Shown: positions 4,730 through 64,000 of the stretch, piece after piece | Layout: every line of letters starts with the position of its first letter | Position numbering within the stretch: the stretch's first letter is position 1 | Assembly: GCA_032718475.1 (NCBI GenBank) | Contig: JAUCBJ010000533.1 | Coordinates: 1-64,000 of the forward strand | DNA from: Nemertoderma westbladi | Taxonomy: Eukaryota; Animalia; Xenacoelomorpha | Length of the DNA stretch: 64,000 bases | Direction of reading: 5' to 3' | Position numbers and translations under genes: made by a program | Notes under the pieces: model-generated | Databases searched by the model: none | What the model was told of the DNA's origin: nothing | What the model saw: the letters and a program-made list of their open reading frames with translations, nothing else

Positions 4730-4739
4730 GTTATAATCA

Positions 4740-4902: not shown

Positions 4903-5097
4903 CAAGGTTCATCCGATGCTTCCCAAGTAATTAAACTGACGTGGCAACAGAAACAGAGAGCCCTGTCCTCGCCCGGGTGGGTGGGGTGATGGTAGAAGCC
5001 AGCGGCGGCCATCGCGTCAGGGAGGGCCCACTTATAGCCCATGTGGGGCCACGAGGTGAACGTCTCACGCCTACACCACTCACTACCCATCTGGTAT
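4903..5097 (-). CDS. BIRC6: BIRC6/BRUCE-like exon: N-terminal part of the BIR domain
   Basis: YQMGSEWCRRETFTSWPHMGYKWALPDAMAAAGFYHHPTHPGEDRALCFCCHVSLITWEASDEP(W). RRETFTSWPH is characteristic of BIRC6. With the next exon it completes C-x2-C-x16-H-x6-C. Acceptor ctttttAG at 5098-5099, donor TG|GTTAGT. Confidence 0.93.
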
Positions 5098-5419: not shown

Positions 5420-5543
5420 CCCCGTGCGTCCGGCTCATTGGCACTCTGGTCCAACTCCAACAAGCGATTGAGAAGGGCCCCTATGGTCGGTAGAAACGTA
5501 GACATTGATTTCCTATTGCTGTTCGAAATATTGGAAATATTGC
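5420..5543 (-). CDS. BIRC6: BIRC6-like exon upstream of the BIR domain
   Basis: (G)NISNISNSNRKSMSTFLPTIGALLNRLLELDQSANEPDAR(G). Acceptor tttattatAG at 5544-5545, donor GG|GTTAGT. Phases fit both neighbouring exons. Confidence 0.75.
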
Positions 5544-5797: not shown

Positions 5798-5975
5798 CGG
5801 CGATATCTAGACAAACGTCGCGTAGTGATTCCAACGGGACAACCAGTAAGACGGTGAACCACTTGGTAAGTTTGTTTGCGAGTCTCGAGTCGACGGGGTG
5901 TTGGGAATCAGCTGCAAACACTGAGTTCTCCCGTTGTAGTTCGAGTTTGAGAACAGATTCTAAATCAGCACCGGC
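5798..5975 (-). CDS. BIRC6: BIRC6-like exon whose acceptor and first 19 nt overlap the terminal satellite monomer
   Basis: AGADLESVLKLELQRENSVFAADSQHPVDSRLANKLTKWFTVLLVVPLESLRDVCLDIA(G). The NKLTKWFTV segment resembles the recalled BIRC6 HKVAKWATV. Donor G|GTAAGA at 5797, acceptor TTCTCTCTCTCTAG|G at 5976-5977. An alternative acceptor TTTAG at 5960-5961 cannot be excluded. Confidence 0.75.
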
Positions 5976-8900
5976 CTAGAGAGAGAGAACAAAGCCAATT
6001 CTAAATAAGCACCGTCCCAGAGAGAGAACAAAGCCAATTCCAAATCAGCATCGTCCTAGAGAGAGAGAACAAAGCCAATTCTAAATCAGCATCGTCCTAG
6101 AGAGAGAACAAAGCCAATTCCAAATCAGCATCGGCCTAGAGAGAACAAAGCCAATTCTAAATCAGCATCGGCCTAGAGAGAGAACAAAGCCAATTCTAAA
6201 TCAGCATCGTCCTAGAGAGAGAACAAAGCCAATTCTAAATCAGCATCGTCCTAGAGAGAGAACAAAGCCAATTCTAAATCAGCATCGGTCCTAGAGAGAG
6301 AACAAAGCCAATTCTAAATCAGCATCGTCCTAGAGAGAGAACAAAGCCAATTCTAAATCAGCACCGGTCCTAGAGAGAGAACAAAGCCAATTCTAAATCA
6401 GCATCGTCCTAGAGAGAGAACAAAGCCAATTCTAAATCAGCATCGTCCTAGAGAGAGAACAAAGCCAATTCTAAATCAGCATCGTCCTAGAGAGAGAACA
6501 AAGCCAATTCTAAATCAGCATCGGTCCTAGAGAGAGAACAAAGCCAATTCTAAATCAGCATCGTCCTAGAGAGAGAACAAAGCCAATTCTAAATCAGCAT
6601 CGGTCCTAGAGAGAGAACAAAGCCAATTCTAAATCAGCACCGTCCTGAGAGAGAGAACAAAGCCAATTCTAAATCAGCATCGCCCTAGAGAGAGAGAACA
6701 AAGCCAATTCTAAATCAGCATCGTCCTAGAGAGAGAACAAAGCCAATTCTAAATCAGCATCGTCCTAGAGAGAGAGAACAAAGCCAATTCTAAATCAGCA
6801 ACGGTCTAGAGAGAGAGAGAACAAAGCCAATTCTAAATCAGCATCGTCCTAGAGAGAGAACAAAGCCAATTCTAAATCAGCATCGTCCTAGAGAGAGAGA
6901 ACAAAGCCAATTCTAAATCAGCATCGGCCTAGAGAGAGAACAAAGCCAATTCTAAATCAGCATCGGCCTAGAGAGAGAACAAAGCCAATTCTAAATCAGC
7001 ATCGGCCTAGAGAGAGAACAAAGCCAATTCTAAATCAGCATCGGCCTAGAGAGAGAACAAAGCCAATTCTAAATCAGCATCGGCCTAGAGAGAGAACAAA
7101 GCCAATTCTAAATCAGAATCGTCCTAGAGAGAGAACAAAGCCAATTCCAAATCAGCATCGGCCTAGAGAGAGAACAAAGCCAATTCTAAATAAGCACCGG
7201 CTTAGAGAGAGAACAAAGCCAATTCTAAATCAGCATCGTCCTAGAGAGAGAGAACAAAGCCAATTCTAAATCAGCATCGTCCTAGAGAGAGAACAAAGCC
7301 AATTCTAAATCAGCATCGTCCTAGAGAGAGAGAACAAAGCCAATTCTAAATCAGCATCGGTCCTAGAGAGAGAACAAAGCCAATTCTAAATCAGCATCGT
7401 CCTAGAGAGAGAACAAAGCCAATTCTAAATCAGCATCGTCCTAGAGAGAGAACAAAGCCAATTCTAAATCAGCATCGGTCCTGAGAGAGAGAACAAAGCC
7501 AATTCTAAATCAGCATCGTCCTAGAGAGAGAACAAAGCCAATTCTAAATCAGCATCGTCTTAGAGAGAGAGAACAAAGCCAATTCTAAATCAGCATCGTC
7601 CTAGAGAGAGAGAACAAAGCCAATTCTAAATCAGCATCGGCCTAGAGAGAGAACAAAGCCAATTCTAAATCAGCATCGTCCTAGAGAGAGAACAAAGCCA
7701 ATTCTAAATCAGCATCGTCCTAGAGAGAGAACAAAGCCAATTCTAAATAGCATCGGCCTAGAGAGAGAACAAAGCCAATTCTAAATCAGCATCGTCCTAG
7801 AGAGAGAACAAAGCCAATTCTAAATCAGAATCGTCCAGAGAGAGAACAAAGCCAATTCTAAATCAGCATCGTCCTAGAGAGAGAGAACAAAGCCAATTCT
7901 AAATCAGCATCGGCCTAGAGAGAGAACAAAGCCAATTCTAAATCAGCATCGGTCTAGAGAGAGAACAAAGCCAATTCTAAATCAGCATCGTCCTAGAGAG
8001 AGAACAAAGCCAATTCTAAATCAGCATCGTCCTAGAGAGAGAACAAAGCCAATTCTAAATCAGCATCGGCCTAGAGAGAGAACAAAGCCAATTCTAAATC
8101 AGCATCGTCCTAGAGAGAGAACAAAGCCAATTCTAAATCAGCATCGTCCTAGAGAGAGAACAAAGCCAATTCTAAATCAGCATCGTCCTAGAGAGAGAAC
8201 AAAGCCAATTCTAAATCAGCATCGTCCTAAGAGAGAGAACAAAGCCAATTCTAAATCAGCATCGTCCTAGAGAGAGAACAAAGCCAATTCTAAATCAGCA
8301 TCGTCCTAGAGAGAGAACAAAGCCAATTCTAAATCAGCATCGGCCTAGAGAGAGAACAAAGCCAATTCTAAATCAGCATCGTCCTAGAGAGAGAACAAAG
8401 CCAATTCTAAATCAGCATCGCCCTAGAGAGAGAACAAAGCCAATTCCAAATCAGCATCGTCCTAGAGAGAGAGAACAAAGCCAATTCTAAATCAGCATCG
8501 TCCTAGAGAGAGAACAAAGCCAATTCTAAATCAGCACCGTCCTAGAGAGAGAGAACAAAGCCAATTCTAAATCAGCATCGTCCTAGAGAGAGAACAAAGC
8601 CAATTCTAAATCAGCATCGTCCTAGAGAGAGAACAAAGCCAATTCTAAATCAGCATCGGCCTAGAGAGAGAACAAAGCCAATTCTAAATCAGCATCGTCC
8701 TAGAGAGAGAACAAAGCCAATTCTAAATCAGCATCGGCCTAGAGAGAGAACAAAGCCAATTCTAAATCAGCATCGTCCTAGAGAGAGAACAAAGCCAATT
8801 CTAAATCAGCATCGTCCTAGAGAGAGAACAAAGCCAATTCTAAATCAGCATCGTCCTAGAGAGAGAACAAAGCCAATTCTAAATCAGCATCGTCCTAGAG

Positions 8901-9239
8901 AGAGAACAAAGCCAATTCTAAATAAGCATCGGCCTAGAGAGAGAACAAAGCCAATTCTAAATCAGCATCGTCCTAGAGAGAGAACAAAGCCAATTCTAAA
9001 TCAGCATCGTCCTAGAGAGAGAGAACAAAGCCAATTCTAAATCAGCATCGTCCTAGAGAGAGAACAAAGACAATTCTAAATCAGAATCGTCCCAGAGAGA
9101 GAACAAAGCCAATTCTAAATCAGCATCGTCCTAGAGAGAGAACAAAGCCAATTCTAAATCAGAATCGTCCTAGAGAGAGAGAACAAAGCCAATTCTAAAT
9201 AAGCACCGGCTTAGAGAGAGAACAAAGCCAATTCCAAAT

Positions 9240-10140
9240 CAGCATCGTCCTAGAGAGAGAACAAAGCCAATTCTAAATCAGCATCGTCCTAGAGAGAGAA
9301 CAAAGCCAATTCTAAATCAGCATCGGTCTAGAGAGAGAACAAAGCCAATTCTAAATCAGCATCGGCCTAGAGAGAGAACAAAGCCAATTCTAAATCAGCA
9401 CCGTCCTAGAGAGAGAGAACAAAGCCAATTCAAAATCAGAATCGTCCTAGAGAGAGAACAAAGCCAATTCTAAATAAGCACCGGCTTAGAGAGAGAACAA
9501 AGCCAATTCCAAATCAGCATCGGCCTAGAGAGAGAACAAAGCCAATTCTAAATCAGCATCGTCCTAGAGAGAGAACAAAGCCAATTCTAAATCAGCATCG
9601 TCCTAGAGAGAGAACAAAGCCAATTCTAAATCAGCATCGTCCTAGAGAGAGAACAAAGCCAATTCTAAATCAGCATCGGTCTAGAGAGAGAACAAAGCCA
9701 ATTCTAAATCAGCATCGGCCTAGAGAGAGAACAAAGCCAATTCTAAATCAGCACCGTCCTAGAGAGAGAGAACAAAGCCAATTCAAAATCAGAATCGTCC
9801 TAGAGAGAGAACAAAGCCAATTCTAAATAAGCACCGGCTTAGAGAGAGAACAAAGCCAATTCCAAATCAGCATCGGCCTAGAGAGAGAACAAAGCCAATT
9901 CTAAATCAGCATCGTCCTAGAGAGAGAACAAAGCCAATTCTAAATCAGCATCGTCCTAGAGAGAGAACAAAGCCAATTCTAAATCAGCATCGTCCTAGAG
10001 AGAGAACAAAGCCAATTCTAAATCAGCATCGGTCTAGAGAGAGAACAAAGCCAATTCTAAATCAGCATCGGCCTAGAGAGAGAACAAAGCCAATTCTAAA
10101 TCAGCACCGTCCTAGAGAGAGAGAACAAAGCCAATTCAAA
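9240..10140. repeat. Local 9-monomer (353 bp) higher-order repeat
   Basis: The rare variant ttCAAAatc recurs at 9431, 9784 and 10137, a spacing of 353 = 8x39+41. Confidence 0.85.
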
Positions 10141-13100
10141 ATCAGCATCGTCCTAGAGAGAGAACAAAGCCAATTCTAAATCAGCATCGTCCTAGAGAGA
10201 GAACAAAGCCAATTCCAAATCAGCATCGTCCTAGAGAGAGAGAACAAAGCCAATTCTAAATAAGCACCGGCTTAGAGAGAGAACAAAGCCAATTCCAAAT
10301 CAGCATCGTCCTAGAGAGAGAGAACAAAGCCAATTCTAAATCAGCATCGTCCTAGAGAGAGAACAAAGCCAATTCCAAATCAGCATCGTCCTAGAGAGAG
10401 AGAACAAAGCCAATTCAAAATCAGCATCGTCCTAGAGAAAGAACAAAGCCAATTCTAAATCAGCATCGTCCTAGAGAGAGAACAAAGCCAATTCCAAATC
10501 AGCATCGTCCTAGAGAGAGAGAACAAAGCCAATTCTAAATAAGCACCGGCTTAGAGAGAGAGAACAAAGCCAATTCTAAATCAGAATCGTCCCAGAGAGA
10601 GAACAAAGCCAATTCTAAATCACCATCGGCCTAGAGAGAGAACAAAGCCAATTCTAAATCAGCATCGTCCTAGAGAGAGAACAAAGCCAATTCTAAATCA
10701 GCATCGTCCTAGAGAGAACAAAGCCAATTCCAAATCAGCATCGGCCTAGAGAGAGAACAAAGCCAATTCTAAATAAGCACCGTCCTAGAGAGAGAACAAA
10801 GCCAATTCTAAATAAGCAAAGCATCGTATTAGAGAGAGAACAAAGCCAATTCTAAATCAGCATCGTCCTAGAGAGAGAACAAAGCCAATTCTAAATAAGC
10901 ACCGTCCTAGAGAGAGAACAAAGCCAATTCTAAATAAGCATCGTCCTAGAGAGAGAACAAAGCCAATTCTAAATCAGAATCGTCCCAGAGAGAGAACAAA
11001 GCCAATTCTAAATCAGCATCGTCCTAGAGAGAGAACAAAGCCAATTCCAAATCAGCATCGTCCTAGAGAGAGAACAAAGCCAATTCTAAATCAGCATCGT
11101 CCTAGAGAGAACAAAGCCAATTCCAAATCAGCATCGTCCTAGAGAGAACAAAGCCAATTCCAAATCAGCATCGGCCTAGAGAGAGAACAAAGCCAATTCT
11201 AAATAAGCACCGTCCTAGAGAGAGAACAAAGCCAATTCTAAATAAGCATCGTCCTAGAGAGAGAACAAAGCCAATTCTAAATAAGCACCGTCCTAGAGAG
11301 AGAACAAAGCCAATTCCAAATCAGCATCGGCCTAGAGAGAGAACAAAGCCAATTCCAAATCAGCATCGTCCTAGAGAGAGAACAAAGCCAATTCTAAATC
11401 AGCATCGTCCTAGAGAGAACAAAGCCAATTCCAAATCAGCATCGTCCTAGAGAGAACAAAGCCAATTCCAAATCAGCATCGGCCTAGAGAGAGAACAAAG
11501 CCAATTCTAAATAAGCACCGTCCTAGAGAGAGAACAAAGCCAATTCTAAATAAGCATCGTCCTAGAGAGAGAACAAAGCCAATTCTAAATAAGCACCGTC
11601 CTAGAGAGAGAACAAAGCCAATTCTAAATAAGCATCGTCCTAGAGAGAGAACAAAGCCAATTCTAAATCAGCATCGCCCTAGAGAGAGAACAAAGCCAAT
11701 TCTAAATCAGAATCGTCCCAGAGAGAGAACAAAGCCAATTCCAAATCAGCATCGTCCTAGAGAGAACAAAGCCAATTCCAAATCAGCATCGGCCTAGAGA
11801 GAGAACAAAGCCAATTCTAAATAAGCACCGGCTTAGAGAGAGAACAAAGCCAATTCCAAATCAGCATCGGCCTAGAGAGAGAACAAAGCCAATTCTAAAT
11901 AAGCATCGTCCTAGAGAGAGAACAAAGCCAATTCTAAATCAGAATCGTCCCAGAGAGAGAACAAAGCCAATTCCAAATCAGCATCGTCCTAGAGAGAACA
12001 AAGCCAATTCCAAATCAGCATCGGCCTAGAGAGAGAACAAAGCCAATTCTAAATAAGCACCGGCTTAGAGAGAGAACAAAGCCAATTCCAAATCAGCATC
12101 GTCCTAGAGAGAACAAAGCCAATTCTAAATCAGAATCGTCCCAGAGAGAGAACAAAGCCAATTCTAAATAAGCACCGGCTTAGAGAGAGAACAAAGCCAA
12201 TTCTAAATAAGCATCGTCCTAGAGAGAGAACAAAGCCAATTCTAAATCAGAATCGTCCCAGAGAGAGAACAAAGCCAATTCCAAATCAGCATCGTCCTAG
12301 AGAGAACAAAGCCAATTCCAAATCAGCATCGGCCTAGAGAGAGAACAAAGCCAATTCTAAATAAGCACCGTCCTAGAGAGAGAACAAAGCCAATTCTAAA
12401 TAAGCATCGTCCTAGAGAGAGAACAAAGCCAATTCTAAATAAGCACCGTCCTAGAGAGAGAACAAAGCCAATTCTAAATAAGCATCGTCCTAGAGAGAGA
12501 ACAAAGCCAATTCTAAATCAGAATCGTCCCAGAGAGAGAACAAAGCCAATTCCAAATCAGCATCGTCCTAGAGAGAGAACAAAGCCAATTCTAAATCAGC
12601 ACCGGCCTAGAGAGAGAGAACAAAGCCAATTCTAAATCAGCACCGGCCTAAAGAGAGAGAACAAAGCCAATTCCAAATCAGCATCGGCCTAGAGAGAGAA
12701 CAAAGCCAATTCTAAATAAGCACCGGCTTAGAGAGAGAACAAAGCCAATTCCAAATCAGCATCGTCCTAGAGAGAACAAAGCCAATTCTAAATCAGAATC
12801 GTCCCAGAGAGAGAACAAAGCCAATTCTAAATAAGCACCGGCTTAGAGAGAGAACAAAGCCAATTCCAAATCAGCATCGTCCTAGAGAGAACAAAGCCAA
12901 TTCCAAATCAGCATCGGCCTAGAGAGAGAACAAAGCCAATTCTAAATAAGCACCGGCTTAGAGAGAGAACAAAGCCAATTCCAAATCAGCATCGTCCTAG
13001 AGAGAGAGAACAAAGCCAATTCTAAATCAGCATCGTCCTAGAGAGAACAAAGCCAATTCTAAATCAGAATCGTCCCAGAGAGAGAACAAAGCCAATTCTA

Positions 13101-41500: not shown

Positions 41501-44500
41501 GAGAACAAAGCCAATTCTAAATCAGAATCGGCCTAGAGAGAGAACAAAGCCAATTCTAAATCAGCATCGTCCTAGAGAGAGAACAAAGCCAATTCTAAAT
41601 CAACACCGTCCTAGAGAGAGAACAAAGCCAATTCTAAATCAGTATCGTCCTAGAGAGAGAACAAAGCCAATTCTAAATCAGCATCGTCCTGGAGAGAACA
41701 AAGTCAATTCTAAATCAGCATCGTCCTAGAGAGAACAAAGTCAATTCTAAATCAGCATCGTCCTAGAGAGAGAACAAAGCCAATTCTAAATCAGAATCGG
41801 CCTAGAGAGAGAACAAAGCCAATTCTAAATCAGCATCGCCCTAGAGAGAACAAAGCCAATTCTAAATAAGCATCGTCCTAGAGAGAGAACAAAGCCAATT
41901 CTAAATCAGCATCGTCCTAGAGAGAGAGAACAAAGCCAATTCTAAATCAGCATCGTCCCTGAGAGAGAACAAAGCCAATTCCAAATCAGCATCGGCCTAG
42001 AGAGAGAACAAAGCCAATTCTAAATCAGCACCGTCCTAGAGAGAGAACAAAGCCAATTCTAAATCAGCACCGTCCTAGAGAGAGAGAACAAAGCCAATTC
42101 TAAATAAGCATCGGCCTAGAGAGAGAACAAAGCCAATTCTAAATCAGCATCGTCCTAGAGAGAGAACAAAGCCAATTCTAAATAAGCATCGGCCTAGAGA
42201 GAGAACAAAGCCAATTCTAAATCAGAATCGTCCTAGAGAGAGAACAAAGCCAATTCTAAATAAGCATCATCCTAGAGAGAGAGAACAAAGCCAATTCCAA
42301 ATCAGCATCGGCCTAGAGAGAGAACAAAGCCAATTCTAAATAAGCACCGGCTTAGAGAGAGAACAAAGCCAATTCTAAATCAGCATCGTCCTAGAGAGAG
42401 AACAAAGCCAATTCTAAATAAGCATCGGCCTAGAGAGAGAACAAAGCCAATTCCAAATCAGCATCGGCCTAGAGAGAGAACAAAGCCAATTCTAAATCAG
42501 CACCGTCCTAGAGAGAGAACAAAGCCAATTCTAAATCAGCACCGTCCTAGAGAGAGAGAACAAAGCCAATTCTAAATCAGAATCGTCCTAGAGAGAGAAC
42601 AAAGCCAATTCCAAATAAGCACCGGCTTAGAGAGAGAACAAAGCCAATTCCAAATCAGCAACGTCCTAGAGAGAGAACAAAGCCAATTCTAAATAAGCAA
42701 CGGCTTAGAGAGAGAACAAAGCCAATTCTAAATCAGCATCGTCCTAGAGAGAGAGAACAAAGCCAATTCTAAATCAGCATCGTCCTAGAGAGAGAACAAA
42801 GCCAATTCCAAATCAGCATCGGCCTAGAGAGAGAACAAAGCCAATTCTAAATCAGAATCGTCCTAGAGAGAGAACAAAGCCAATTCTAAATCAGCATCGT
42901 CCTAGAGAGAGAACAAAGCCAATTCCAAATCAGCAACGTCCTAGAGAGAGAACAAAGCCAATTCTAAATAAGCACCGGCTTAGAGAGAGAACAAAGCCAA
43001 TTCCAAATCAGCAACGTCCTAGAGAGAGAACAAAGCCAATTCTAAATCAGCATCGTCCTAGAGAGAGAACAAAGCCAATTCTAAATAAGCATCGTCCCAG
43101 AGAGAGAACAAAGCCAATTCCAAATCAGCATCGGCCTAGAGAGAGAACAAAGCCAATTCTAAATAAGCACCGGCTTAGAGAGAGAACAAAGCCAATTCCA
43201 AATCAGCATCGGCCTAGAGAGAGAACAAAGCCAATTCTAAATCAGAATCGTCCTAGAGAGAGAGAACAAAGCCAATTCTAAATCAGAATCGTCCTAGAGA
43301 GAGAACAAAGCCAATTCTAAATCAACACCGTCCTAGAGAGAACAAAGCCAATTCTAAATAAGCATCGTCCCAGAGAGAGAACAAAGCCAATTCCAAATCA
43401 GCATCGGCCTAGAGAGAGAACAAAGCCAATTCTAAATAAGCACCGGCTTAGAGAGAGAACAAAGCCAATTCCAAATCAGCATCGGCCTAGAGAGAGAACA
43501 AAGCCAATTCTAAATCAGAATCGTCCTAGATAGAGAACAAAGCCAATTCTAAATAAGCATCGTCCCAGAGAGAGAACAAAGCCAATTCCAAATCAGCATC
43601 GGCCTAGAGAGAGAACAAAGCCAATTCTAAATAAGCACCGGCTTAGAGAGAGAACAAAGCCAATTCCAAATCAGCATCGGCCTAGAGAGAGAACAAAGCC
43701 AATTCTAAATCAGAATCGTCCTAGAGAGAGAACAAAGCCAATTCTAAATCAGCATCGTCCTAGAGAGAGAACAAAGCCAATTCTAAATCAGCATCGTCCT
43801 AGAGAGAGAACAAAGCCAATTCCAAATCAGCATCGGCCTAGAGAGAGAACAAAGTCAATTCTAAATCAGCATCGTCCTAGAGAGAACAAAGTCAATTCTA
43901 AATCAGCATCGTCCTAGAGAGAGAACAAAGCCAATTCTAAATCAGAATCGGCCTAGAGAGAGAACAAAGCCAATTCTAAATCAGCATCGTCCTAGAGAGA
44001 GAACAAAGCCAATTCTAAATCAACACCGTCCTAGAGAGAGAACAAAGCCAATTCTAAATCAGTATCGTCCTAGAGAGAGAACAAAGCCAATTCTAAATCA
44101 GCATCGTCCTGGAGAGAACAAAGTCAATTCTAAATCAGCATCGTCCTAGAGAGAACAAAGTCAATTCTAAATCAGCATCGTCCTAGAGAGAGAACAAAGC
44201 CAATTCTAAATCAGAATCGGCCTAGAGAGAGAACAAAGCCAATTCTAAATCAGCATCGCCCTAGAGAGAACAAAGCCAATTCTAAATAAGCATCGTCCTA
44301 GAGAGAGAACAAAGCCAATTCTAAATCAGCATCGTCCTAGAGAGAGAGAACAAAGCCAATTCTAAATCAGCATCGTCCCTGAGAGAGAACAAAGCCAATT
44401 CCAAATCAGCATCGGCCTAGAGAGAGAACAAAGCCAATTCTAAATCAGCACCGTCCTAGAGAGAGAACAAAGCCAATTCTAAATCAGCACCGTCCTAGAG

Positions 44501-47500
44501 AGAGAGAACAAAGCCAATTCTAAATAAGCATCGGCCTAGAGAGAGAACAAAGCCAATTCTAAATCAGCATCGTCCTAGAGAGAGAACAAAGCCAATTCTA
44601 AATAAGCATCGGCCTAGAGAGAGAACAAAGCCAATTCTAAATCAGAATCGTCCTAGAGAGAGAACAAAGCCAATTCTAAATAAGCATCATCCTAGAGAGA
44701 GAGAACAAAGCCAATTCCAAATCAGCATCGGCCTAGAGAGAGAACAAAGCCAATTCTAAATAAGCACCGGCTTAGAGAGAGAACAAAGCCAATTCTAAAT
44801 CAGCATCGTCCTAGAGAGAGAACAAAGCCAATTCTAAATAAGCATCGGCCTAGAGAGAGAACAAAGCCAATTCCAAATCAGCATCGGCCTAGAGAGAGAA
44901 CAAAGCCAATTCTAAATCAGCACCGTCCTAGAGAGAGAACAAAGCCAATTCTAAATCAGCACCGTCCTAGAGAGAGAGAACAAAGCCAATTCTAAATCAG
45001 AATCGTCCTAGAGAGAGAACAAAGCCAATTCCAAATAAGCACCGGCTTAGAGAGAGAACAAAGCCAATTCCAAATCAGCAACGTCCTAGAGAGAGAACAA
45101 AGCCAATTCTAAATAAGCAACGGCTTAGAGAGAGAACAAAGCCAATTCTAAATCAGCATCGTCCTAGAGAGAGAGAACAAAGCCAATTCTAAATCAGCAT
45201 CGTCCTAGAGAGAGAACAAAGCCAATTCCAAATCAGCATCGGCCTAGAGAGAGAACAAAGCCAATTCTAAATCAGAATCGTCCTAGAGAGAGAACAAAGC
45301 CAATTCTAAATCAGCATCGTCCTAGAGAGAGAACAAAGCCAATTCCAAATCAGCAACGTCCTAGAGAGAGAACAAAGCCAATTCTAAATAAGCACCGGCT
45401 TAGAGAGAGAACAAAGCCAATTCCAAATCAGCAACGTCCTAGAGAGAGAACAAAGCCAATTCTAAATCAGCATCGTCCTAGAGAGAGAACAAAGCCAATT
45501 CTAAATAAGCATCGTCCCAGAGAGAGAACAAAGCCAATTCCAAATCAGCATCGGCCTAGAGAGAGAACAAAGCCAATTCTAAATAAGCACCGGCTTAGAG
45601 AGAGAACAAAGCCAATTCCAAATCAGCATCGGCCTAGAGAGAGAACAAAGCCAATTCTAAATCAGAATCGTCCTAGAGAGAGAGAACAAAGCCAATTCTA
45701 AATCAGAATCGTCCTAGAGAGAGAACAAAGCCAATTCTAAATCAACACCGTCCTAGAGAGAACAAAGCCAATTCTAAATAAGCATCGTCCCAGAGAGAGA
45801 ACAAAGCCAATTCCAAATCAGCATCGGCCTAGAGAGAGAACAAAGCCAATTCTAAATAAGCACCGGCTTAGAGAGAGAACAAAGCCAATTCCAAATCAGC
45901 ATCGGCCTAGAGAGAGAACAAAGCCAATTCTAAATCAGAATCGTCCTAGATAGAGAACAAAGCCAATTCTAAATAAGCATCGTCCCAGAGAGAGAACAAA
46001 GCCAATTCCAAATCAGCATCGGCCTAGAGAGAGAACAAAGCCAATTCTAAATAAGCACCGGCTTAGAGAGAGAACAAAGCCAATTCCAAATCAGCATCGG
46101 CCTAGAGAGAGAACAAAGCCAATTCTAAATCAGAATCGTCCTAGAGAGAGAACAAAGCCAATTCTAAATCAGCATCGTCCTAGAGAGAGAACAAAGCCAA
46201 TTCTAAATCAGCATCGTCCTAGAGAGAGAACAAAGCCAATTCCAAATCAGCATCGGCCTAGAGAGAGAACAAAGCCAATTCTAAATCAGCACCGTCCTAG
46301 AGAGAGAACAAAGCCAATTCTAAATCAGCACCGTCCTAGAGAGAGAGAACAAAGCCAATTCTAAATCAGCATCGGCCTAGAGAGAGAACAAAGCCAATTC
46401 TAAATCAGCATCGGCCTAGAGAGAGAACAAAGCCAATTCTAAATCAGCACCGGCTTAGAGAGAGAGAACAAAGCCAATTCTAAATAAGCATCATCCCAGA
46501 GAGAGAACAAAGCCAATTCCAAATCAGCATCGGCCTAGAGAGAGAACAAAGCCAATTCTAAATAAGCACCGGCTTAGAGAGAGAACAAAGCCAATTCCAA
46601 ATCAGCATCGGCCTAGAGAGAGAACAAAGCCAATTCTAAATCAGAATCGTCCTAGAGAGAGAACAAAGCCAATTCTAAATCAGAATCGTCCTAGAGAGAG
46701 AACAAAGCCAATTCTAAATAAGCACCGGCTTAGAGAGAGAGAACAAAGCCAATTCTAAATAAGCATCATCCCAGAGAGAGAACAAAGCCAATTCCAAATC
46801 AGCATCGGCCTAGAGAGAGAACAAAGCCAATTCTAAATAAGCACCGGCTTAGAGAGAGAACAAAGCCAATTCCAAATCAGCATCGGCCTAGAGAGAGAAC
46901 AAAGCCAATTCTAAATCAGAATCGTCCTAGAGAGAGAACAAAGCCAATTCTAAATAAGCAACGGCTTAGAGAGAGAACAAAGCCAATTCCAAATCAGCAT
47001 CGGCCTAGAGAGAGAACAAAGCCAATTCTAAATCAGCATCGTCCTAGAGAGAGAGAACAAAGCCAATTCTAAATCAGAATCGTCCTAGAGAGAGAACAAA
47101 GCCAATTCTAAATAAGCACCGGCTTAGAGAGAGAACAAAGCCAATTCCAAATCAGCATCGGCCTAGAGAGAGAACAAAGCCAATTCTAAATCAGAATCGT
47201 CCTAGAGAGAGAACAAAGCCAATTCTAAATAAGCACCGGCTTAGAGAGAGAACAAAGCCAATTCTAAATCAGCACCGTCCTAGAGAGAGAGAACAAAGCC
47301 AATTCTAAATAAGCATCGTCCCAGAGAGAGAACAAAGCCAATTCCAAATCAGCATCGGCCTAGAGAGAGAACAAAGCCAATTCTAAATCAGAATCGTCCT
47401 AGAGAGAGAACAAAGCCAATTCTAAATCAACACCGTCCTAGAGAGAGAGAACAAAGCCAATTCTAAATAAGCATCGTCCCAGAGAGAGAACAAAGCCAAT

Positions 47501-50500
47501 TCCAAATCAGCATCGGCCTAGAGAGAGAACAAAGCCAATTCTAAATAAGCACCGGCTTAGAGAGAGAACAAAGCCAATTCCAAATCAGCATCGGCCTAGA
47601 GAGAGAACAAAGCCAATTCTAAATCAGAATCGTCCTAGATAGAGAACAAAGCCAATTCTAAATAAGCATCGTCCCAGAGAGAGAACAAAGCCAATTCTAA
47701 ATCAGCATCGGCCTAGAGAGAGAACAAAGCCAATTCTAAATAAGCACCGGCTTAGAGAGAGAACAAAGCCAATTCCAAATCAGCATCGGCCTAGAGAGAG
47801 AACAAAGCCAATTCTAAATCAGAATCGTCCTAGAGAGAGAACAAAGCCAATTCTAAATCAGCATCGTCCTAGAGAGAGAGAACAAAGCCAATTCTAAATC
47901 AACACCGTCCTAGAGAGAGAACAAAGCCAATTCTAAATCAGTATCGTCCTAGAGAGAGAACAAAGCCAATTCTAAATCAGCATCGTCCTGGAGAGAACAA
48001 AGTCAATTCTAAATCAGCATCGTCCTAGAGAGAACAAAGTCAATTCTAAATCAGCATCGTCCTAGAGAGAGAACAAAGCCAATTCTAAATCAGAATCGGC
48101 CTAGAGAGAGAACAAAGTCAATTCTAAATCAGCATCGTCCTAGAGAGAACAAAGTCAATTCTAAATCAGCATCGTCCTAGAGAGAGAACAAAGCCAATTC
48201 TAAATCAGAATCGGCCTAGAGAGAGAACAAAGCCAATTCTAAATCAGCATCGTCCTAGAGAGAGAACAAAGCCAATTCTAAATCAACACCGTCCTAGAGA
48301 GAGAACAAAGCCAATTCTAAATCAGTATCGTCCTAGAGAGAGAACAAAGCCAATTCTAAATCAGCATCGTCCTGGAGAGAACAAAGTCAATTCTAAATCA
48401 GCATCGTCCTAGAGAGAACAAAGTCAATTCTAAATCAGCATCGTCCTAGAGAGAGAACAAAGCCAATTCTAAATCAGAATCGGCCTAGAGAGAGAACAAA
48501 GCCAATTCTAAATCAGCATCGCCCTAGAGAGAACAAAGCCAATTCTAAATAAGCATCGTCCTAGAGAGAGAACAAAGCCAATTCTAAATCAGCATCGTCC
48601 TAGAGAGAGAGAACAAAGCCAATTCTAAATCAGCATCGTCCCTGAGAGAGAACAAAGCCAATTCCAAATCAGCATCGGCCTAGAGAGAGAACAAAGCCAA
48701 TTCTAAATCAGCACCGTCCTAGAGAGAGAACAAAGCCAATTCTAAATCAGCACCGTCCTAGAGAGAGAGAACAAAGCCAATTCTAAATAAGCATCGGCCT
48801 AGAGAGAGAACAAAGCCAATTCTAAATCAGCATCGTCCTAGAGAGAGAACAAAGCCAATTCTAAATAAGCATCGGCCTAGAGAGAGAACAAAGCCAATTC
48901 TAAATCAGAATCGTCCTAGAGAGAGAACAAAGCCAATTCTAAATAAGCATCATCCTAGAGAGAGAGAACAAAGCCAATTCCAAATCAGCATCGGCCTAGA
49001 GAGAGAACAAAGCCAATTCTAAATAAGCACCGGCTTAGAGAGAGAACAAAGCCAATTCTAAATCAGCATCGTCCTAGAGAGAGAACAAAGCCAATTCTAA
49101 ATAAGCATCGGCCTAGAGAGAGAACAAAGCCAATTCCAAATCAGCATCGGCCTAGAGAGAGAACAAAGCCAATTCTAAATCAGCACCGTCCTAGAGAGAG
49201 AACAAAGCCAATTCTAAATCAGCACCGTCCTAGAGAGAGAGAACAAAGCCAATTCTAAATCAGAATCGTCCTAGAGAGAGAACAAAGCCAATTCCAAATA
49301 AGCACCGGCTTAGAGAGAGAACAAAGCCAATTCCAAATCAGCAACGTCCTAGAGAGAGAACAAAGCCAATTCTAAATAAGCAACGGCTTAGAGAGAGAAC
49401 AAAGCCAATTCTAAATCAGCATCGTCCTAGAGAGAGAGAACAAAGCCAATTCTAAATCAGCATCGTCCTAGAGAGAGAACAAAGCCAATTCCAAATCAGC
49501 ATCGGCCTAGAGAGAGAACAAAGCCAATTCTAAATCAGAATCGTCCTAGAGAGAGAACAAAGCCAATTCTAAATCAGCATCGTCCTAGAGAGAGAACAAA
49601 GCCAATTCCAAATCAGCAACGTCCTAGAGAGAGAACAAAGCCAATTCTAAATAAGCACCGGCTTAGAGAGAGAACAAAGCCAATTCCAAATCAGCAACGT
49701 CCTAGAGAGAGAACAAAGCCAATTCTAAATCAGCATCGTCCTAGAGAGAGAACAAAGCCAATTCTAAATAAGCATCGTCCCAGAGAGAGAACAAAGCCAA
49801 TTCCAAATCAGCATCGGCCTAGAGAGAGAACAAAGCCAATTCTAAATAAGCACCGGCTTAGAGAGAGAACAAAGCCAATTCCAAATCAGCATCGGCCTAG
49901 AGAGAGAACAAAGCCAATTCTAAATCAGAATCGTCCTAGAGAGAGAGAACAAAGCCAATTCTAAATCAGAATCGTCCTAGAGAGAGAACAAAGCCAATTC
50001 TAAATCAACACCGTCCTAGAGAGAACAAAGCCAATTCTAAATAAGCATCGTCCCAGAGAGAGAACAAAGCCAATTCCAAATCAGCATCGGCCTAGAGAGA
50101 GAACAAAGCCAATTCTAAATAAGCACCGGCTTAGAGAGAGAACAAAGCCAATTCCAAATCAGCATCGGCCTAGAGAGAGAACAAAGCCAATTCTAAATCA
50201 GAATCGTCCTAGATAGAGAACAAAGCCAATTCTAAATAAGCATCGTCCCAGAGAGAGAACAAAGCCAATTCCAAATCAGCATCGGCCTAGAGAGAGAACA
50301 AAGCCAATTCTAAATAAGCACCGGCTTAGAGAGAGAACAAAGCCAATTCCAAATCAGCATCGGCCTAGAGAGAGAACAAAGCCAATTCTAAATCAGAATC
50401 GTCCTAGAGAGAGAACAAAGCCAATTCTAAATCAGCATCGTCCTAGAGAGAGAACAAAGCCAATTCTAAATCAGCATCGTCCTAGAGAGAGAACAAAGCC

Positions 50501-53500
50501 AATTCCAAATCAGCATCGGCCTAGAGAGAGAACAAAGCCAATTCTAAATCAGCACCGTCCTAGAGAGAGAACAAAGCCAATTCTAAATCAGCACCGTCCT
50601 AGAGAGAGAGAACAAAGCCAATTCTAAATCAGCATCGGCCTAGAGAGAGAACAAAGCCAATTCTAAATCAGCATCGGCCTAGAGAGAGAACAAAGCCAAT
50701 TCTAAATCAGCACCGGCTTAGAGAGAGAGAACAAAGCCAATTCTAAATAAGCATCATCCCAGAGAGAGAACAAAGCCAATTCCAAATCAGCATCGGCCTA
50801 GAGAGAGAACAAAGCCAATTCTAAATAAGCACCGGCTTAGAGAGAGAACAAAGCCAATTCCAAATCAGCATCGGCCTAGAGAGAGAACAAAGCCAATTCT
50901 AAATCAGAATCGTCCTAGAGAGAGAACAAAGCCAATTCTAAATCAGAATCGTCCTAGAGAGAGAACAAAGCCAATTCTAAATAAGCACCGGCTTAGAGAG
51001 AGAGAACAAAGCCAATTCTAAATAAGCATCATCCCAGAGAGAGAACAAAGCCAATTCCAAATCAGCATCGGCCTAGAGAGAGAACAAAGCCAATTCTAAA
51101 TAAGCACCGGCTTAGAGAGAGAACAAAGCCAATTCCAAATCAGCATCGGCCTAGAGAGAGAACAAAGCCAATTCTAAATCAGAATCGTCCTAGAGAGAGA
51201 ACAAAGCCAATTCTAAATAAGCAACGGCTTAGAGAGAGAACAAAGCCAATTCCAAATCAGCATCGGCCTAGAGAGAGAACAAAGCCAATTCTAAATCAGC
51301 ATCGTCCTAGAGAGAGAGAACAAAGCCAATTCTAAATCAGAATCGTCCTAGAGAGAGAACAAAGCCAATTCTAAATAAGCACCGGCTTAGAGAGAGAACA
51401 AAGCCAATTCCAAATCAGCATCGGCCTAGAGAGAGAACAAAGCCAATTCTAAATCAGAATCGTCCTAGAGAGAGAACAAAGCCAATTCTAAATAAGCACC
51501 GGCTTAGAGAGAGAACAAAGCCAATTCTAAATCAGCACCGTCCTAGAGAGAGAGAACAAAGCCAATTCTAAATAAGCATCGTCCCAGAGAGAGAACAAAG
51601 CCAATTCCAAATCAGCATCGGCCTAGAGAGAGAACAAAGCCAATTCTAAATCAGAATCGTCCTAGAGAGAGAACAAAGCCAATTCTAAATCAACACCGTC
51701 CTAGAGAGAGAGAACAAAGCCAATTCTAAATAAGCATCGTCCCAGAGAGAGAACAAAGCCAATTCCAAATCAGCATCGGCCTAGAGAGAGAACAAAGCCA
51801 ATTCTAAATAAGCACCGGCTTAGAGAGAGAACAAAGCCAATTCCAAATCAGCATCGGCCTAGAGAGAGAACAAAGCCAATTCTAAATCAGAATCGTCCTA
51901 GATAGAGAACAAAGCCAATTCTAAATAAGCATCGTCCCAGAGAGAGAACAAAGCCAATTCTAAATCAGCATCGGCCTAGAGAGAGAACAAAGCCAATTCT
52001 AAATAAGCACCGGCTTAGAGAGAGAACAAAGCCAATTCCAAATCAGCATCGGCCTAGAGAGAGAACAAAGCCAATTCTAAATCAGAATCGTCCTAGAGAG
52101 AGAACAAAGCCAATTCTAAATCAGCATCGTCCTAGAGAGAGAGAACAAAGCCAATTCTAAATCAACACCGTCCTAGAGAGAGAACAAAGCCAATTCTAAA
52201 TCAGTATCGTCCTAGAGAGAGAACAAAGCCAATTCTAAATCAGCATCGTCCTGGAGAGAACAAAGTCAATTCTAAATCAGCATCGTCCTAGAGAGAACAA
52301 AGTCAATTCTAAATCAGCATCGTCCTAGAGAGAGAACAAAGCCAATTCTAAATCAGAATCGGCCTAGAGAGAGAACAAAGCCAATTCTAAATCAGCATCG
52401 TCCTAGAGAGAGAACAAAGCCAATTCTAAATCAACACCGTCCTAGAGAGAGAACAAAGCCAATTCTAAATCAGTATCGTCCTAGAGAGAGAACAAAGCCA
52501 ATTCTAAATCAGCATCGTCCTGGAGAGAACAAAGTCAATTCTAAATCAGCATCGTCCTAGAGAGAACAAAGTCAATTCTAAATCAGCATCGTCCTAGAGA
52601 GAGAACAAAGCCAATTCTAAATCAGAATCGGCCTAGAGAGAGAACAAAGCCAATTCTAAATCAGCATCGCCCTAGAGAGAACAAAGCCAATTCTAAATAA
52701 GCATCGTCCTAGAGAGAGAACAAAGCCAATTCTAAATCAGCATCGTCCTAGAGAGAGAGAACAAAGCCAATTCTAAATCAGCATCGTCCCTGAGAGAGAA
52801 CAAAGCCAATTCCAAATCAGCATCGGCCTAGAGAGAGAACAAAGCCAATTCTAAATCAGCACCGTCCTAGAGAGAGAACAAAGCCAATTCTAAATCAGCA
52901 CCGTCCTAGAGAGAGAGAACAAAGCCAATTCTAAATAAGCATCGGCCTAGAGAGAGAACAAAGCCAATTCTAAATCAGCATCGTCCTAGAGAGAGAACAA
53001 AGCCAATTCTAAATAAGCATCGGCCTAGAGAGAGAACAAAGCCAATTCTAAATCAGAATCGTCCTAGAGAGAGAACAAAGCCAATTCTAAATAAGCATCA
53101 TCCTAGAGAGAGAGAACAAAGCCAATTCCAAATCAGCATCGGCCTAGAGAGAGAACAAAGCCAATTCTAAATAAGCACCGGCTTAGAGAGAGAACAAAGC
53201 CAATTCTAAATCAGCATCGTCCTAGAGAGAGAACAAAGCCAATTCTAAATAAGCATCGGCCTAGAGAGAGAACAAAGCCAATTCCAAATCAGCATCGGCC
53301 TAGAGAGAGAACAAAGCCAATTCTAAATCAGCACCGTCCTAGAGAGAGAACAAAGCCAATTCTAAATCAGCACCGTCCTAGAGAGAGAGAACAAAGCCAA
53401 TTCTAAATCAGAATCGTCCTAGAGAGAGAACAAAGCCAATTCCAAATAAGCACCGGCTTAGAGAGAGAACAAAGCCAATTCCAAATCAGCAACGTCCTAG
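38550..53500. repeat. Multi-kb higher-order repeat, period about 4.15-4.26 kb, with one 2.42-kb partial duplication
   Basis: The agaTagag marker lies at 39383, 41072, 43531, 45951, 47640, 50214 and 51903 (1689-bp spacing three times; 4148 and 4263 offsets). The cagTatcg marker gives concordant offsets of 2420, 4263 and 4148. Boundaries are approximate. Confidence 0.85.
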
Positions 53501-56500
53501 AGAGAGAACAAAGCCAATTCTAAATCGCATCGTCCTAGAGAGAGAACAAAGCCAATTCTAAATAAGCACCGGCTTAGAGAGAGAACAAAGCCAATTCCAA
53601 ATCAGCAACGTCCTAGAGAGAGAACAAAGCCAATTCTAAATCAGCATCGTCCCTGAGAGAGAACAAAGCCAATTCTAAATCAGCATCGGCCTAGAGAGAG
53701 AACAAAGCCAATTCTAAATCAGCATCGTCCTAGAGAGAACAAAGCCAATTCTAAATCAGAATCGTCCTAGAGAGAGAACAAAGCCAATTCTAAATCAGAA
53801 TCGTCCTAGAGAGAGAACAAAGCCAATTCTAAATCAGCATCGTCCTAGAGAGAGAACAAAGCCAATTCTAAATAAGCATCGGCCTAGAGAGAGAACAAAG
53901 CCAATTCTAAATCAGCATCGTCTTAGAGAGAGAACAAAGCCAATTCTAAATCAGAATCGTCCTAGAGAGAGAACAAAGCCAATTCTAAATAAGCACCGGC
54001 TTAGAGAGAGAGAACAAAGCCAATTCTAAATAAGCACCGGCTTAGAGAGAGAGAACAAAGCCAATTCTAAATAAGCACCGGCTTAGAGAGAGAGAACAAA
54101 GCCAATTCTAAATCAGCATCGGCCTAGAGAGAGAACAAAGCCAATTCTAAATCAGAATCGTCCTAGAGAGAGAACAAAGCCAATTCTAAATAAGCACCGG
54201 CTTAGAGAGAGAGAACAAAGCCAATTCTAAATAAGCACCGGCTTAGAGAGAGAACAAAGCCAATTCTAAATCAGCATCGGCCTAGAGAGAGAACAAAGCC
54301 AATTCTAAATCAGAATCGTCCTAGAGAGAGAACAAAGCCAATTCTAAATAAGCACCGGCTTAGAGAGAGAGAACAAAGCCAATTCTAAATAAGCACCGGC
54401 TTAGAGAGAGAGAACAAAGCCAATTCTAAATAAGCACCGGCTTAGAGAGAGAGAACAAAGCCAATTCTAAATCAGCATCGGCCTAGAGAGAGAACAAAGC
54501 CAATTCTAAATCAGAATCGTCCTAGAGAGAGAACAAAGCCAATTCTAAATCAGCATCGGCCTAGAGAGAGAACAAAGCCAATTCTAAATCAGAATCGTCC
54601 TAGAGAGAGAACAAAGCCAATTCTAAATAAGCACCGGCTTAGAGAGAGAACAAAGCCAATTCCAAATCAGCATCGGCCTAGAGAGAGAACAAAGCCAATT
54701 CTAAATCAGCAACGTCCTAGAGAGAGAACAAAGCCAATTCTAAATCAGAATCGTCCTAGAGAGAGAACAAAGCCAATTCTAAATAAGCACCGGCTTAGAG
54801 AGAGAACAAAGCCAATTCCAAATCAGCAACGTCCTAGAGAGAGAACAAAGCCAATTCTAAATCAGAATCGTCCTAGAGAGAGAACAAAGCCAATTCTAAA
54901 TAAGCAACGGCTTAGAGAGAGAACAAAGCCAATTCCAAATCAGCATCGGCCTAGAGAGAGAACAAAGCCAATTCTAAATCAGAATCGTCCTAGAGAGAGA
55001 ACAAAGCCAATTCTAAATAAGCACCGGCTTAGAGAGAGAGAACAAAGCCAATTCTAAATAAGCATCGTCCTAGAGAGAGAACAAAGCCAATTCCAAATCA
55101 GCAACGTCCTAGAGAGAGAACAAAGCCAATTCCAAATCAGCAACGTCCTAGAGAGAGAACAAAGCCAATTCTAAATCAGAATCGGCCTAGAGAGAGAACA
55201 AAGCCAATTCTAAATAAGCATCGTCCCAGAGAGAGAACAAAGCCAATTCTAAATAAGCACCGGCTTAGAGAGAGAACAAAGCCAATTCCAAATCAGCATC
55301 GGCCTAGAGAGAGAACAAAGCCAATTCTAAATAAGCACCGGCTTAGAGAGAGAACAAAGCCAATTCCAAATCAGCATCGTCCTAGAGAGAGAACAAAGCC
55401 AATTCTAAATCAACACCGTCCTAGAGAGAGAGAACAAAGCCAATTCTAAATAAGCATCATCCCAGAGAGAGAACAAAGCCAATTCCAAATCAGCATCGGC
55501 CTAGAGAGAGAACAAAGCCAATTCTAAATAAGCACCGGCTTAGAGAGAGAACAAAGCCAATTCCAAATCAGCATCGGCCTAGAGAGAGAACAAAGCCAAT
55601 TCTAAATCAGAATCGTCCTAGAGAGAGAACAAAGCCAATTCTAAATAAGCAACGGCTTAGAGAGAGAACAAAGCCAATTCCAAATCAGCATCGGCCTAGA
55701 GAGAGAACAAAGCCAATTCTAAATCAGAATCGTCCTAGAGAGAGAACAAAGCCAATTCTAAATAAGCACCGGCTTAGAGAGAGAACAAAGCCAATTCCAA
55801 ATCAGCAACGTCCTAGAGAGAGAACAAAGCCAATTCTAAATCAGAATCGTCCTAGAGAGAGAACAAAGCCAATTCTAAATCAACACCGTCCTAGAGAGAG
55901 AGAACAAAGCCAATTCTAAATAAGCATCGTCCCAGAGAGAGAACAAAGCCAATTCCAAATCAGCATCGGCCTAGAGAGAGAACAAAGCCAATTCTAAATA
56001 AGCACCGGCTTAGAGAGAGAACAAAGCCAATTCCAAATCAGCATCGGCCTAGAGAGAGAACAAAGCCAATTCTAAATCAGAATCGTCCTAGATAGAGAAC
56101 AAAGCCAATTCTAAATAAGCATCGTCCCAGAGAGAGAACAAAGCCAATTCCAAATCAGCATCGGCCTAGAGAGAGAACAAAGCCAATTCTAAATAAGCAC
56201 CGGCTTAGAGAGAGAACAAAGCCAATTCCAAATCAGCATCGGCCTAGAGAGAGAACAAAGCCAATTCTAAATCAGAATCGTCCTAGAGAGAGAACAAAGC
56301 CAATTCTAAATCAGCATCGTCCTAGAGAGAGAACAAAGCCAATTCTAAATCAGCATCGTCCTAGAGAGAGAACAAAGCTAATTCTAAATCAGCATCGTCC
56401 TAGAGAGAGAGAACAAAGCCAATTCTAAATCAACACCGTCCTAGAGAGAGAACAAAGCCAATTCTAAATCAGTATCGTCCTAGAGAGAGAACAAAGCCAA

Positions 56501-62500: not shown

Positions 62501-64000
62501 ATTCTAAATCAGCATCGTCCTAGAGAGAGAACAAAGCCAATTCTAAATAAGCATCGGCCTAGAGAGAGAACAAAGCCAATTCTAAATCAGCATCGTCCTA
62601 GAGAGAGAACAAAGCCAATTCTAAATAAGCATCGTCCTAGAGAGAGAACAAAGCCAATTCTAAATAAGCATCGGCCTAGAGAGAGAACAAAGCCAATTCT
62701 AAATCAGCATCGTCCTAGAGAGAGAACAAAGCCAATTCTAAATAAGCATCGGCCTAGAGAGAGAACAAAGCCAATTCTAAATCAGAATCGTCCTAGAGAG
62801 AGAACAAAGCCAATTCTAAATCAGCACCGTCCTAGTGAGAGAACAAAGCCAATTCTAAATAAGCATCGGCCTAGAGAGAGAACAAAGCCAATTCTAAATA
62901 AGCATCGGCCTAGAGAGAGAACAAAGCCAATTCTAAATCAGCATCGTCCTAGAGAGAGAACAAAGCCAATTCTAAATCAGCATCGGTCTAGAGAGAGAAC
63001 AAAGCCAATTCTAAATCAGCACCGGCCCAAAGAGAGAGAACAAAGCCAATTCCAAATCAGCATCGTCCTAGAGAGAGAACAAAGCCAATTCTAAATCAGC
63101 ATCGTCCTAGAGAGAGAACAAAGCCAATTCTAAATCAGCATCGTCCTAGAGAGAGAACAAAGCCAATTCTAAATAAGCATCGGCCTAGAGAGAACAAAGC
63201 CAATTCTAAATCAGCACCGGCCTAGAGAGAGAGAACAAAGCCAATTCCAAATCAGCATCGTCCTAGAGAGAGAACAAAGCCAATTCTAAATCAGCATCGT
63301 CCTAGAGAGAACAAAGCCAATTCTAAATCAGAATCGTCCTAGAGAGAGAACAAAGCCAATTCTAAATCAACACCGTCCTAGAGAGAGAGAACAAAGCCAA
63401 TTCCAAATCAGCATCGGCCTAGAGAGAGAACAAAGCCAATTCTAAATCAGCATCGTCCTAGAGAGAACAAAGCCAATTCTAAATCAACATCGTCCTAGAG
63501 AGAACAAAGCCAATTCCAAATCAGCATCGGCCTAGAGAGAGAACAAAGCCAATTCTAAATAAGCATCGTCCTAGAAAGAGAACAAAGCCAATTCTAAATC
63601 AGCATCGTCCTAGAGAGAACAAAGCCAATTCTAAATCAGCACCGGCCTAAAGAGAGAGAACAAAGCCAATTCCAAATCAGCATCGTCCTAGAGAGAGAAC
63701 AAAGCCAATTCTAAATCAGCATCGTCCTAGAGAGAACAAAGCCAATTCTAAATCAGCATCGCCCTAGAGAGAGAACAAAGCCAATTCTAAATCAGCATCG
63801 TCCCAGAGAGAGAACAAAGCCAATTCTAAATCAGCATCGTCCTAGAGAGAGAACAAAGCCAATTCCAAATCAGCATCGTCCTAGAGAGAGAACAAAGCCA
63901 ATTCCAAATCAGCATCGTCCTAGAGAGAGAACAAAGCCAATTCTAAATCAGCATCGTCCTAGAGAGAGAGAACAAAGCCAATTCTAAATCAGCACCGGCC

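What the first reader, a model, noticed from the sequence alone, without database searches (positions are those of the whole stretch)
5949..64000. A >58-kb satellite built from the host gene's own 3' splice site: over a thousand tandem acceptor mimics in a BIRC6 intron
Seen: in transcript (minus) orientation the monomer reads TGGCTTTGTTCTCTCTCTAG|GACGATGCTGATTTAGAAT. The last copy runs directly into the exon (TAG|GCC GGT GCT GAT TTA GAA TCT = AGADLES), so the unit is ~20 nt of intron end plus ~19 nt of exon start. Tandem arrangement places a branch-point-like CTGAT about 28 nt ahead of the next unit's pyrimidine tract and TAG|G. Established: CTRAY + pyrimidine tract + YAG|G is the U2-type acceptor consensus. 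Inference: the spliceosome must ignore a very large number of near-identical acceptors and use the last. This could work by exon definition from the donor at 5797, or by an unusual stepwise or repression mechanism. The array could also act as a U2AF/SF1 sponge. Small junction-spanning repeats are known, but this scale in a usually single-copy conserved gene is striking.
Basis: partly seen in the sequence, partly recalled or inferred. Interest (0 to 1): 0.85.

Follow-up and report, generated by a model that had tools for sequence, protein, structure and literature searches.

The report
Giant splice-acceptor satellite in BIRC6
In an animal's BIRC6 gene the last 20 bases of an intron and the first 19 bases of the next exon are repeated at least 1,478 times over 58 kb, yet a spliced transcript from another sample enters only at the last copy, so this is likely a tolerated, giant case of a repeat type known from lancelets as a "mirage".

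Summary
Window 5957-64000 is one array of 1,478 units of about 39 bases. The last unit is the acceptor plus six codons of a BIRC6 exon; 1,139 other units keep a YAG. A spliced contig from an independent sample joins an upstream exon to 5975 and then three more exons, and that run laid no array contig. DNA contigs of two samples carry the exon into the repeat. Four upstream units are identical to the real one, so local sequence cannot choose; exon definition by the donor at 5797 is the likely rule, and any decoy used would hit a stop within 77 codons. No YAG|GT recursive site exists; nothing supports a sponge. The real acceptor follows CTTAT, not CTGAT. It fits the 'mirage' minisatellites of lancelets and human junction VNTRs, which have 2 to 26 copies in the passages I read. 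The scan found this kind before on other DNA: ten earlier notes in this genome, more in other genomes. Open: the array's far end, and whether the long allele itself splices well.

The parts
5957..64000 (-). Tandem array, 1,478 units of 37-45 nt (mostly 39); unit = about 20 nt of intron end plus 19 nt of exon start; open at the window's end
5957..5998 (-). Terminal unit (41 nt plus one base): real pyrimidine tract, acceptor AG at 5977-5976 and the first six codons of exon A
   Evidence: spliced contig leaves the window at 5977
5999..6037 (-). Next-to-last unit: AG lost (TGG); holds the CTTAT pentamer, the likely branch-point region of the real acceptor (A at -31 and -27)
   Evidence: branch point inferred
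6038..6117 (-). Two nearest intact decoy acceptors (exon-like starts at 6055 and 6096); use would give 258- and 299-nt exons with a stop after 31 codons
38514..53525 (.). 15-kb part of the array made of exact duplicates of 1 kb or more (runs of 108, 106 and 76 identical units at lags of 109, 277 and 168 units): recent higher-order amplification or assembler duplication
5798..5975 (-). Exon A of the BIRC6 gene (178 nt), donor GT at 5797-5796
   Evidence: no family match on its own
5420..5543 (-). Exon B (124 nt)
   Evidence: joints in spliced contig; frame
4903..5097 (-). Exon C (195 nt), BIR domain
   Evidence: Pfam BIR 1.6e-14; BIRC6 3e-23
60..264 (-). Exon D (205 nt), end of BIR and a WD40-like repeat
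   Evidence: BIRC6 1.5e-11; loose end of the spliced contig matches 233-262

Best explanation
The array is a tandem amplification of the BIRC6 gene's own intron end and exon start, likely a neutral 'mirage' grown to satellite size, and the spliceosome uses the last copy, likely because only that copy has a real donor close behind it (exon definition). Steps: (1) a 39-41-base piece across the acceptor was likely duplicated once; this leaves the protein intact because the spare copy falls on the intron side (inferred). (2) Slippage in the TC tract and unequal exchange likely expanded it; exact multi-kb blocks and shared variants along the array are seen, the mechanism is inferred. (3) The upstream exon joins 5975 (shown in one other sample). 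(4) Decoys have no usable donor within reach, so they are likely not defined as exons and the intron is likely removed in one piece (inferred). (5) A decoy used by mistake gives a stop within 77 codons (computed) and would likely be cleared by nonsense-mediated decay (inferred), which would hide leaks.
For: Spliced contig of run X4 (sample S3, study P3): 1,556 nt, 0 mismatches, three pieces on exons A-C, joints with GT..AG ends, loose end from 5977; its other loose end is exon D. At 80% likeness X4 laid 1 record of 1,901,655, the spliced one. Four upstream units are identical to the terminal unit and its -20..+3 stretch occurs 11 times: local signals cannot discriminate. No YAG|GT, no GTnAG, one GTRA in the array, while three of the four real donors have GTnAG. 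All 1,139 decoys stop within 3-77 codons, 766 after 12. AG is kept in 0.90 of the 148 units nearest the exon against 0.68-0.82 elsewhere, so no purge of decoys near the exon. Lancelet mirages and human junction VNTRs behave alike (PMC3087553 section 16; PMC3902484 passages; PMC1557585 passages).
Against: The transcript comes from sample S3, whose array length is unknown; contig depths hint that another sample (S2) holds 5-20 times fewer copies than S1, so the 58-kb allele itself was not seen spliced. Contigs drop rare forms, so low-level decoy use is not excluded. The two nearest decoys would give exons of 258 and 299 nt, within usual exon size, so exon definition alone does not rule them out. 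315 weak CG|GTG donor-like sites lie 4 nt behind an acceptor position, and 172 array GT sites score 6 of 9 on my crude count, as two real donors do. Run X4 is listed as 'DNA?'; I read it as RNA because it lacks introns.
Confidence: 0.7

Rival explanations
1. The intron is removed in several jumps: some decoy acceptors are used first and the weak CG|GTG site 4 nt behind them (or 39n+4 nt on) then serves as a new donor, a loose form of recursive splicing.
For: 315 such GT sites lie in the array; the intron is at least 58 kb; very long satellite introns depend on co-transcriptional splicing (PMC11207136 abstract).
Against: No YAG|GT, no GTnAG, one GTRA site. Each jump would leave 4 or more extra bases unless later skipped; the contig seen has a clean junction.
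Confidence: 0.12
2. The very long array belongs to one haplotype or is partly inflated by the assembler, or this allele is cut off from its upstream exons; the working allele has a much shorter array.
For: 15,012 of 58,044 bases are exact duplicates of 1 kb or more. The far end was not seen and no genome is held. Sample S2 shows lower repeat depth. The DNA contigs reach only 30 bases into the repeat, one short of the tool's own bridging rule.
Against: In X1 summed depth on the unit is about 1,300 times the flank (37,139 against 28.3); two single contigs give 334 and 122 times, against at most 229 and 81 word counts in the window, so X1 holds at least the same order of copies. 129 unit variants and 3,327 distinct 31-mers argue against a collapsed or invented array. 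The junction stands in X1, X2 and X3. The four exons are intact.
Confidence: 0.12
3. The array is functional: its nascent RNA binds U2AF/SF1 as a sponge, or its length tunes BIRC6 output through delay and unproductive splicing.
For: 1,139 YAG decoys, 823 of 1,138 with CTGAT upstream; every decoy leads to a premature stop; length likely differs between samples; the sense strand is predicted to fold into long G-U hairpins (3 of 200 shuffles as stable).
Against: 338 of 1,478 units have lost or shifted the AG; variant frequency does not follow folding stability (Spearman -0.04, 71 variants); the real acceptor is not more open than decoys (120 of 225 decoys have as open a tract); no array contig in X4; unrelated genes of this genome carry like arrays by earlier notes.
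Confidence: 0.06

Closest known systems
'Mirage' minisatellites of lancelets (globins BflGb6, BflGb9; PGBD5; Adh3 and troponin C as cited). Seen: PMC3087553 abstract, section 16 and one reference passage; PMC3902484 four passages; Canestro 2002 only as cited (not held)
   Same: Tandem copies of an exon-intron boundary; BflGb6 is of the same polarity (intron 3' end plus exon 5' start); many but not all units keep the splice signal; normal mRNA is made; length is unstable.
   Different: 3-7 copies at BflGb6 and PGBD5 in the passages read, against at least 1,478 copies and 58 kb here; higher-order blocks of several kb; the terminal unit is not set apart from the rest (four identical copies upstream).
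Human junction-spanning VNTRs: F7 intron 7 (37 bp), CBS intron 13, 6-16, lamin B2, PDGF. Seen: 12 of 14 passages of PMC1557585
   Same: The first or last unit spans the junction, identical pseudo-sites follow, and the site next to the exon (or the nearest one or two) is used.
   Different: Those are donor arrays of 5-26 copies; this is an acceptor array about 60-300 times longer in copies, in which the site used is the last one transcribed.
Giant satellite-filled introns of Drosophila Y fertility genes. Seen: abstract and outline of PMC11207136
   Same: A very long, repeat-filled intron in a working gene.
   Different: Those introns reach megabases; that their satellites are not copies of the gene's own splice site is recalled, not read. 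Here the repeat is the acceptor itself.
Recursive (ratchet) splicing at YAG|GT sites (recalled)
   Same: Acceptor-like sites inside a long intron.
   Different: No YAG|GT site in the array.

Membership tests
Mirage minisatellite | Head-to-tail tandem array of short units | tested here: met
Mirage minisatellite | The unit spans an exon-intron boundary of the host gene | tested here: met
   terminal unit holds the acceptor used by the spliced contig
Mirage minisatellite | Many, not all, units keep the splice signal | tested here: met
   1,140 of 1,478 with YAG
Mirage minisatellite | Normal mRNA is still made through the authentic site | tested here: met
   one contig from one sample whose array length is unknown
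Mirage minisatellite | Length differs between haplotypes or cells | tested here: inconclusive
   summed contig depth over flank about 1,300 (X1), 270 (X2), 60-100 (X3); the tool warns this is no copy number, and X2 and X3 are one sample
Canonical recursive splicing | Acceptor directly followed by a donor (YAG|GT) | tested here: not met
   0 sites in the array
Canonical recursive splicing | Saw-tooth nascent RNA and lariat intermediates | not testable with these tools
   only contigs are held for these runs
BIRC6 (host gene) | Single BIR domain closest to BIRC6, followed by WD40-like sequence | tested here: met
   BIRC6 chains score 84 bits, the next family 46
BIRC6 (host gene) | Exon A is homologous to the BIRC6 region before the BIR | tested here: inconclusive
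   no significant match alone; it is joined in frame to the BIR exon in the transcript
BIRC6 (host gene) | C-terminal UBC domain, protein of about 4,800 residues, single copy | not testable with these tools
   outside the window; no genome held

The most novel reading that the evidence does not exclude
This animal has a mutational process, coupled to transcription or splicing, that seeds tandem arrays at splice junctions and expands them to tens of kilobases across the genome; array length varies several-fold between individuals and acts as a heritable dial on the host gene (here BIRC6) through delay and leak into stop-containing decoys. The species would then be a natural library for measuring how exon definition picks one acceptor among more than a thousand near-identical ones.
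Probability: 0.15. Interest if true: 0.75.

Novelty: new variant of a known kind. Interest (0 to 1): 0.42.

Why it matters
It is a natural extreme test of splice-site choice. A strict first-come rule for acceptors would pick a copy 58 kb early; the transcript seen uses the last of 1,140, although four earlier units are letter-for-letter the same. That favours selection from the downstream donor and gives a ready minigene substrate. It also shows that a conserved gene can carry a satellite made of its own splice signal, so such arrays can break assemblies and gene models right at exon edges. As a kind of element it is known and likely neutral.

Tried and rejected
No whole genome is held, so the upstream exon, the far end of the array and other loci of the repeat could not be looked up. 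No listed run is on record as RNA: 'no RNA holder listed'; X4 was recognised only by its spliced contig. Homologue searches with exon A and exon C gave nothing (32, 1 and 0 candidates, none significant); phmmer over 1.84 billion representatives gave one hit, P0001, an unnamed protein of 11 matched repeats, rejected as chance; the Atlas gave only scores under 0.8; exon A has no match in solved structures up to E 10. The animal's group was therefore not determined. Structural masking of decoys as the selection rule: rejected; of 225 decoys scored (from 1,139), 120 had as open a pyrimidine tract and 27 as open a YAG as the real acceptor with 100 nt each side, 52 and 81 with only 25 nt downstream; the two consensus changes stabilise the hairpin, but so did 49 of 300 random double changes. 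DNA hairpins as driver of expansion: no support (109 and 186 of 200 shuffles as stable). Purge of AGs near the exon: not seen beyond the single next-to-last unit. Coding role of the 39-base unit: rejected, every decoy stops within 77 codons. No poly(A) hexamer AATAAA or ATTAAA on the sense strand. Rfam: 0 matches in 1-8000. A bacterial promoter scan was irrelevant and empty. Paper searches with no result; one search listed one unrelated paper. Look-ups of earlier findings by place near, by sequence and by 'BIRC6 intron satellite' found nothing on this array.

Full report
Observation. Tandem Repeats Finder reports one array at 5957-63994, period 39, 1478.4 copies, 91% matches, and it runs to the end of the window. 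Splitting on a 12-base anchor gives 1,478 units of 129 kinds, 58 seen once. Lengths differ mostly by TC steps in the pyrimidine tract. Units of 39 nt differ from their consensus by 4.3% and from each other by 6.6%. On the minus strand the last unit (5998-5957) ends in the first six codons of an exon that starts at 5975.

Host gene. Four exons (5975-5798, 5543-5420, 5097-4903, 264-60) have AG and GT ends and read 234 codons without a stop. Exon C is a BIR domain (Pfam 1.6e-14) whose best solved match is BIRC6 (84 bits against 46 for the next family). Exon D matches the next stretch of BIRC6 (1.5e-11; designed WD40 proteins score similarly through many weak repeats). Exon A alone matched nothing. 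The organism is an animal by inference; its group was not determined.

Is the last copy the one used? Six runs were listed, none on record as RNA. Run X4 (sample S3, study P3) holds 0.39 of the words, about the exon share. Laid on 4860-5998, it gives one 1,556-nt contig with no mismatch that covers exons A, B and C, skips 254 and 322 bases with GT..AG ends, and leaves the window at 5977 with 602 bases unlike it. The two bases 5977-5976 are the acceptor AG, matched by chance by the end of the upstream exon, so the canonical cut is at 5975. Read by hand, the 30 loose bases are open in the frame of exon A. The other loose end is exon D. With 302 bases in exons A and B, 602 upstream bases leave room for the roughly 283 residues that precede the BIR match in solved BIRC6. 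At 80% likeness X4 still laid only this record of 1,901,655. I read X4 as RNA because it lacks introns, though it is listed 'DNA?'. This is one contig of one sample, and contigs drop rare forms.

Is the junction and the size real? Contigs of X1 (possibly the source of the window), X2 and X3 (one other sample) run from the unique flank to 5986, 30 bases into the repeat and 11 into the intron end; that is where a 31-mer graph must branch, but one base short of the tool's bridging rule. Summed depth over the unit is about 1,300 times the flank in X1, 270 in X2 and 60-100 in X3. Two single X1 contigs stand at 334 and 122 times the flank, where the window's own word counts reach at most 229 and 81 (five other contigs could not be assigned to a variant). 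The tool warns that such depths are no copy number, so I take them only as an order of magnitude for X1 and as a hint that S2 holds fewer copies. One part, 38514-53525 (15,012 of 58,044 bases), consists of exact duplicates of 1 kb or more, either recent unequal exchange or assembler duplication. The far end was not seen; no genome is held.

How one acceptor is chosen. Four upstream units are identical to the terminal unit, and its -20..+3 stretch occurs 11 times, so a local splice-site score cannot pick it. Predicted folding does not either: the sense strand forms long G-U hairpins (3 of 200 shuffles as stable), but the real acceptor is no more open than the 225 decoys scored. What is unique is what follows: a donor 178 bases on. 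The array has no YAG|GT, no GTnAG and one GTRA. Exon definition is therefore the likely rule (inference from established splicing knowledge; the model is described in PMC1557585). The loss of AG in the next-to-last unit removes the closest rival, but one such loss is well within chance, and the nearest 148 units keep more AGs than the rest (0.90 against 0.68-0.82). The next decoys would give exons of 258 and 299 nt. All 1,139 decoys lead to a stop within 77 codons, so mistakes would likely be degraded and unseen. Against this reading: 315 weak CG|GTG sites could allow jumps, and the long allele was never seen spliced.

Origin. A duplication across an acceptor leaves the protein unchanged if the downstream copy is used, so it can survive and grow on the intron side. 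The exon's states at the two positions where it differs from the consensus are common in the array (579 and 312 of 1,466 units), and variants are mixed along its length, as expected of turnover by slippage and unequal exchange. Direction (exon first, array second) is inferred, not shown; no relative without the array was found.

Comparison. Earlier notes of this scan (unchecked AI notes) gave me the name 'mirage' and the papers. I read PMC3087553 (abstract, section 16, one reference passage): tandem copies of intron-exon boundaries in lancelet genes, BflGb6 with this polarity, 6 and 3 units, many keeping splice signals, normal splicing, unstable length. PMC3902484 (four passages) adds PGBD5 with 2-7 units. 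PMC1557585 (12 of 14 passages) lists human donor arrays of 5-26 units. I did not open the supplements of these papers; those of PMC3087553 hold unit alignments that may bear on the comparison. Canestro 2002 is not held. My ten searches listed no paper on a junction array of this size; the library lacks most subscription journals. The scan's notes list ten findings of this kind in the same genome (NF-kB, beta-catenin twice, a nuclear receptor, CstF-77, a RhoGEF, CUL3, an ion channel, TFCP2, BRSK) and smaller ones in worms and sea urchins; I did not test them.

Verdict. Real, and a member of the mirage kind by four features met and one inconclusive; new in scale (at least 1,478 copies, 58 kb, acceptor type). 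Most likely neutral and resolved by exon definition (0.7). Interest 0.42: a good natural substrate for testing acceptor choice, not a new system. The bolder reading, a junction-coupled expansion process with length effects on expression, I put at 0.15.

Noticed in passing
window 838-3671 (+): A non-LTR retrotransposon lies antisense in the intron between exons C and D: an 822-codon frame with endonuclease and reverse-transcriptase domains (Pfam) that ends at 3306, with the rest in another frame (3267-3671). RTE-like is my recalled label.
   Followed up: partly
window 757-823: A 21-base repeat of 3.1 degenerate copies just before the retrotransposon frame.
   Followed up: no
window 6311-10849: Ten of the 12 units with odd lengths (34, 38, 40, 44 nt) lie within 4.9 kb of the exon: a local variant family or consensus errors at the array's edge.
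   Followed up: no
window 38514-53525: Exact higher-order blocks, among them a 109-unit (4.3-kb) tandem duplication.
   Followed up: partly
window 5957-64000 (-): The sense RNA of the consensus unit is predicted to pair with its neighbours into long G-U-rich hairpins (3 of 200 shuffles as stable), while the antisense strand is not; this could compact the intron or give double-stranded RNA.
   Followed up: partly
window 5960: A second AG 16 bases inside exon A, repeated in most units; the spliced contig does not use it.
   Followed up: no
window 5572: One intronic G>A difference in sample S2 (runs X2, X3); no other difference was listed for 4860-5998.
   Followed up: no
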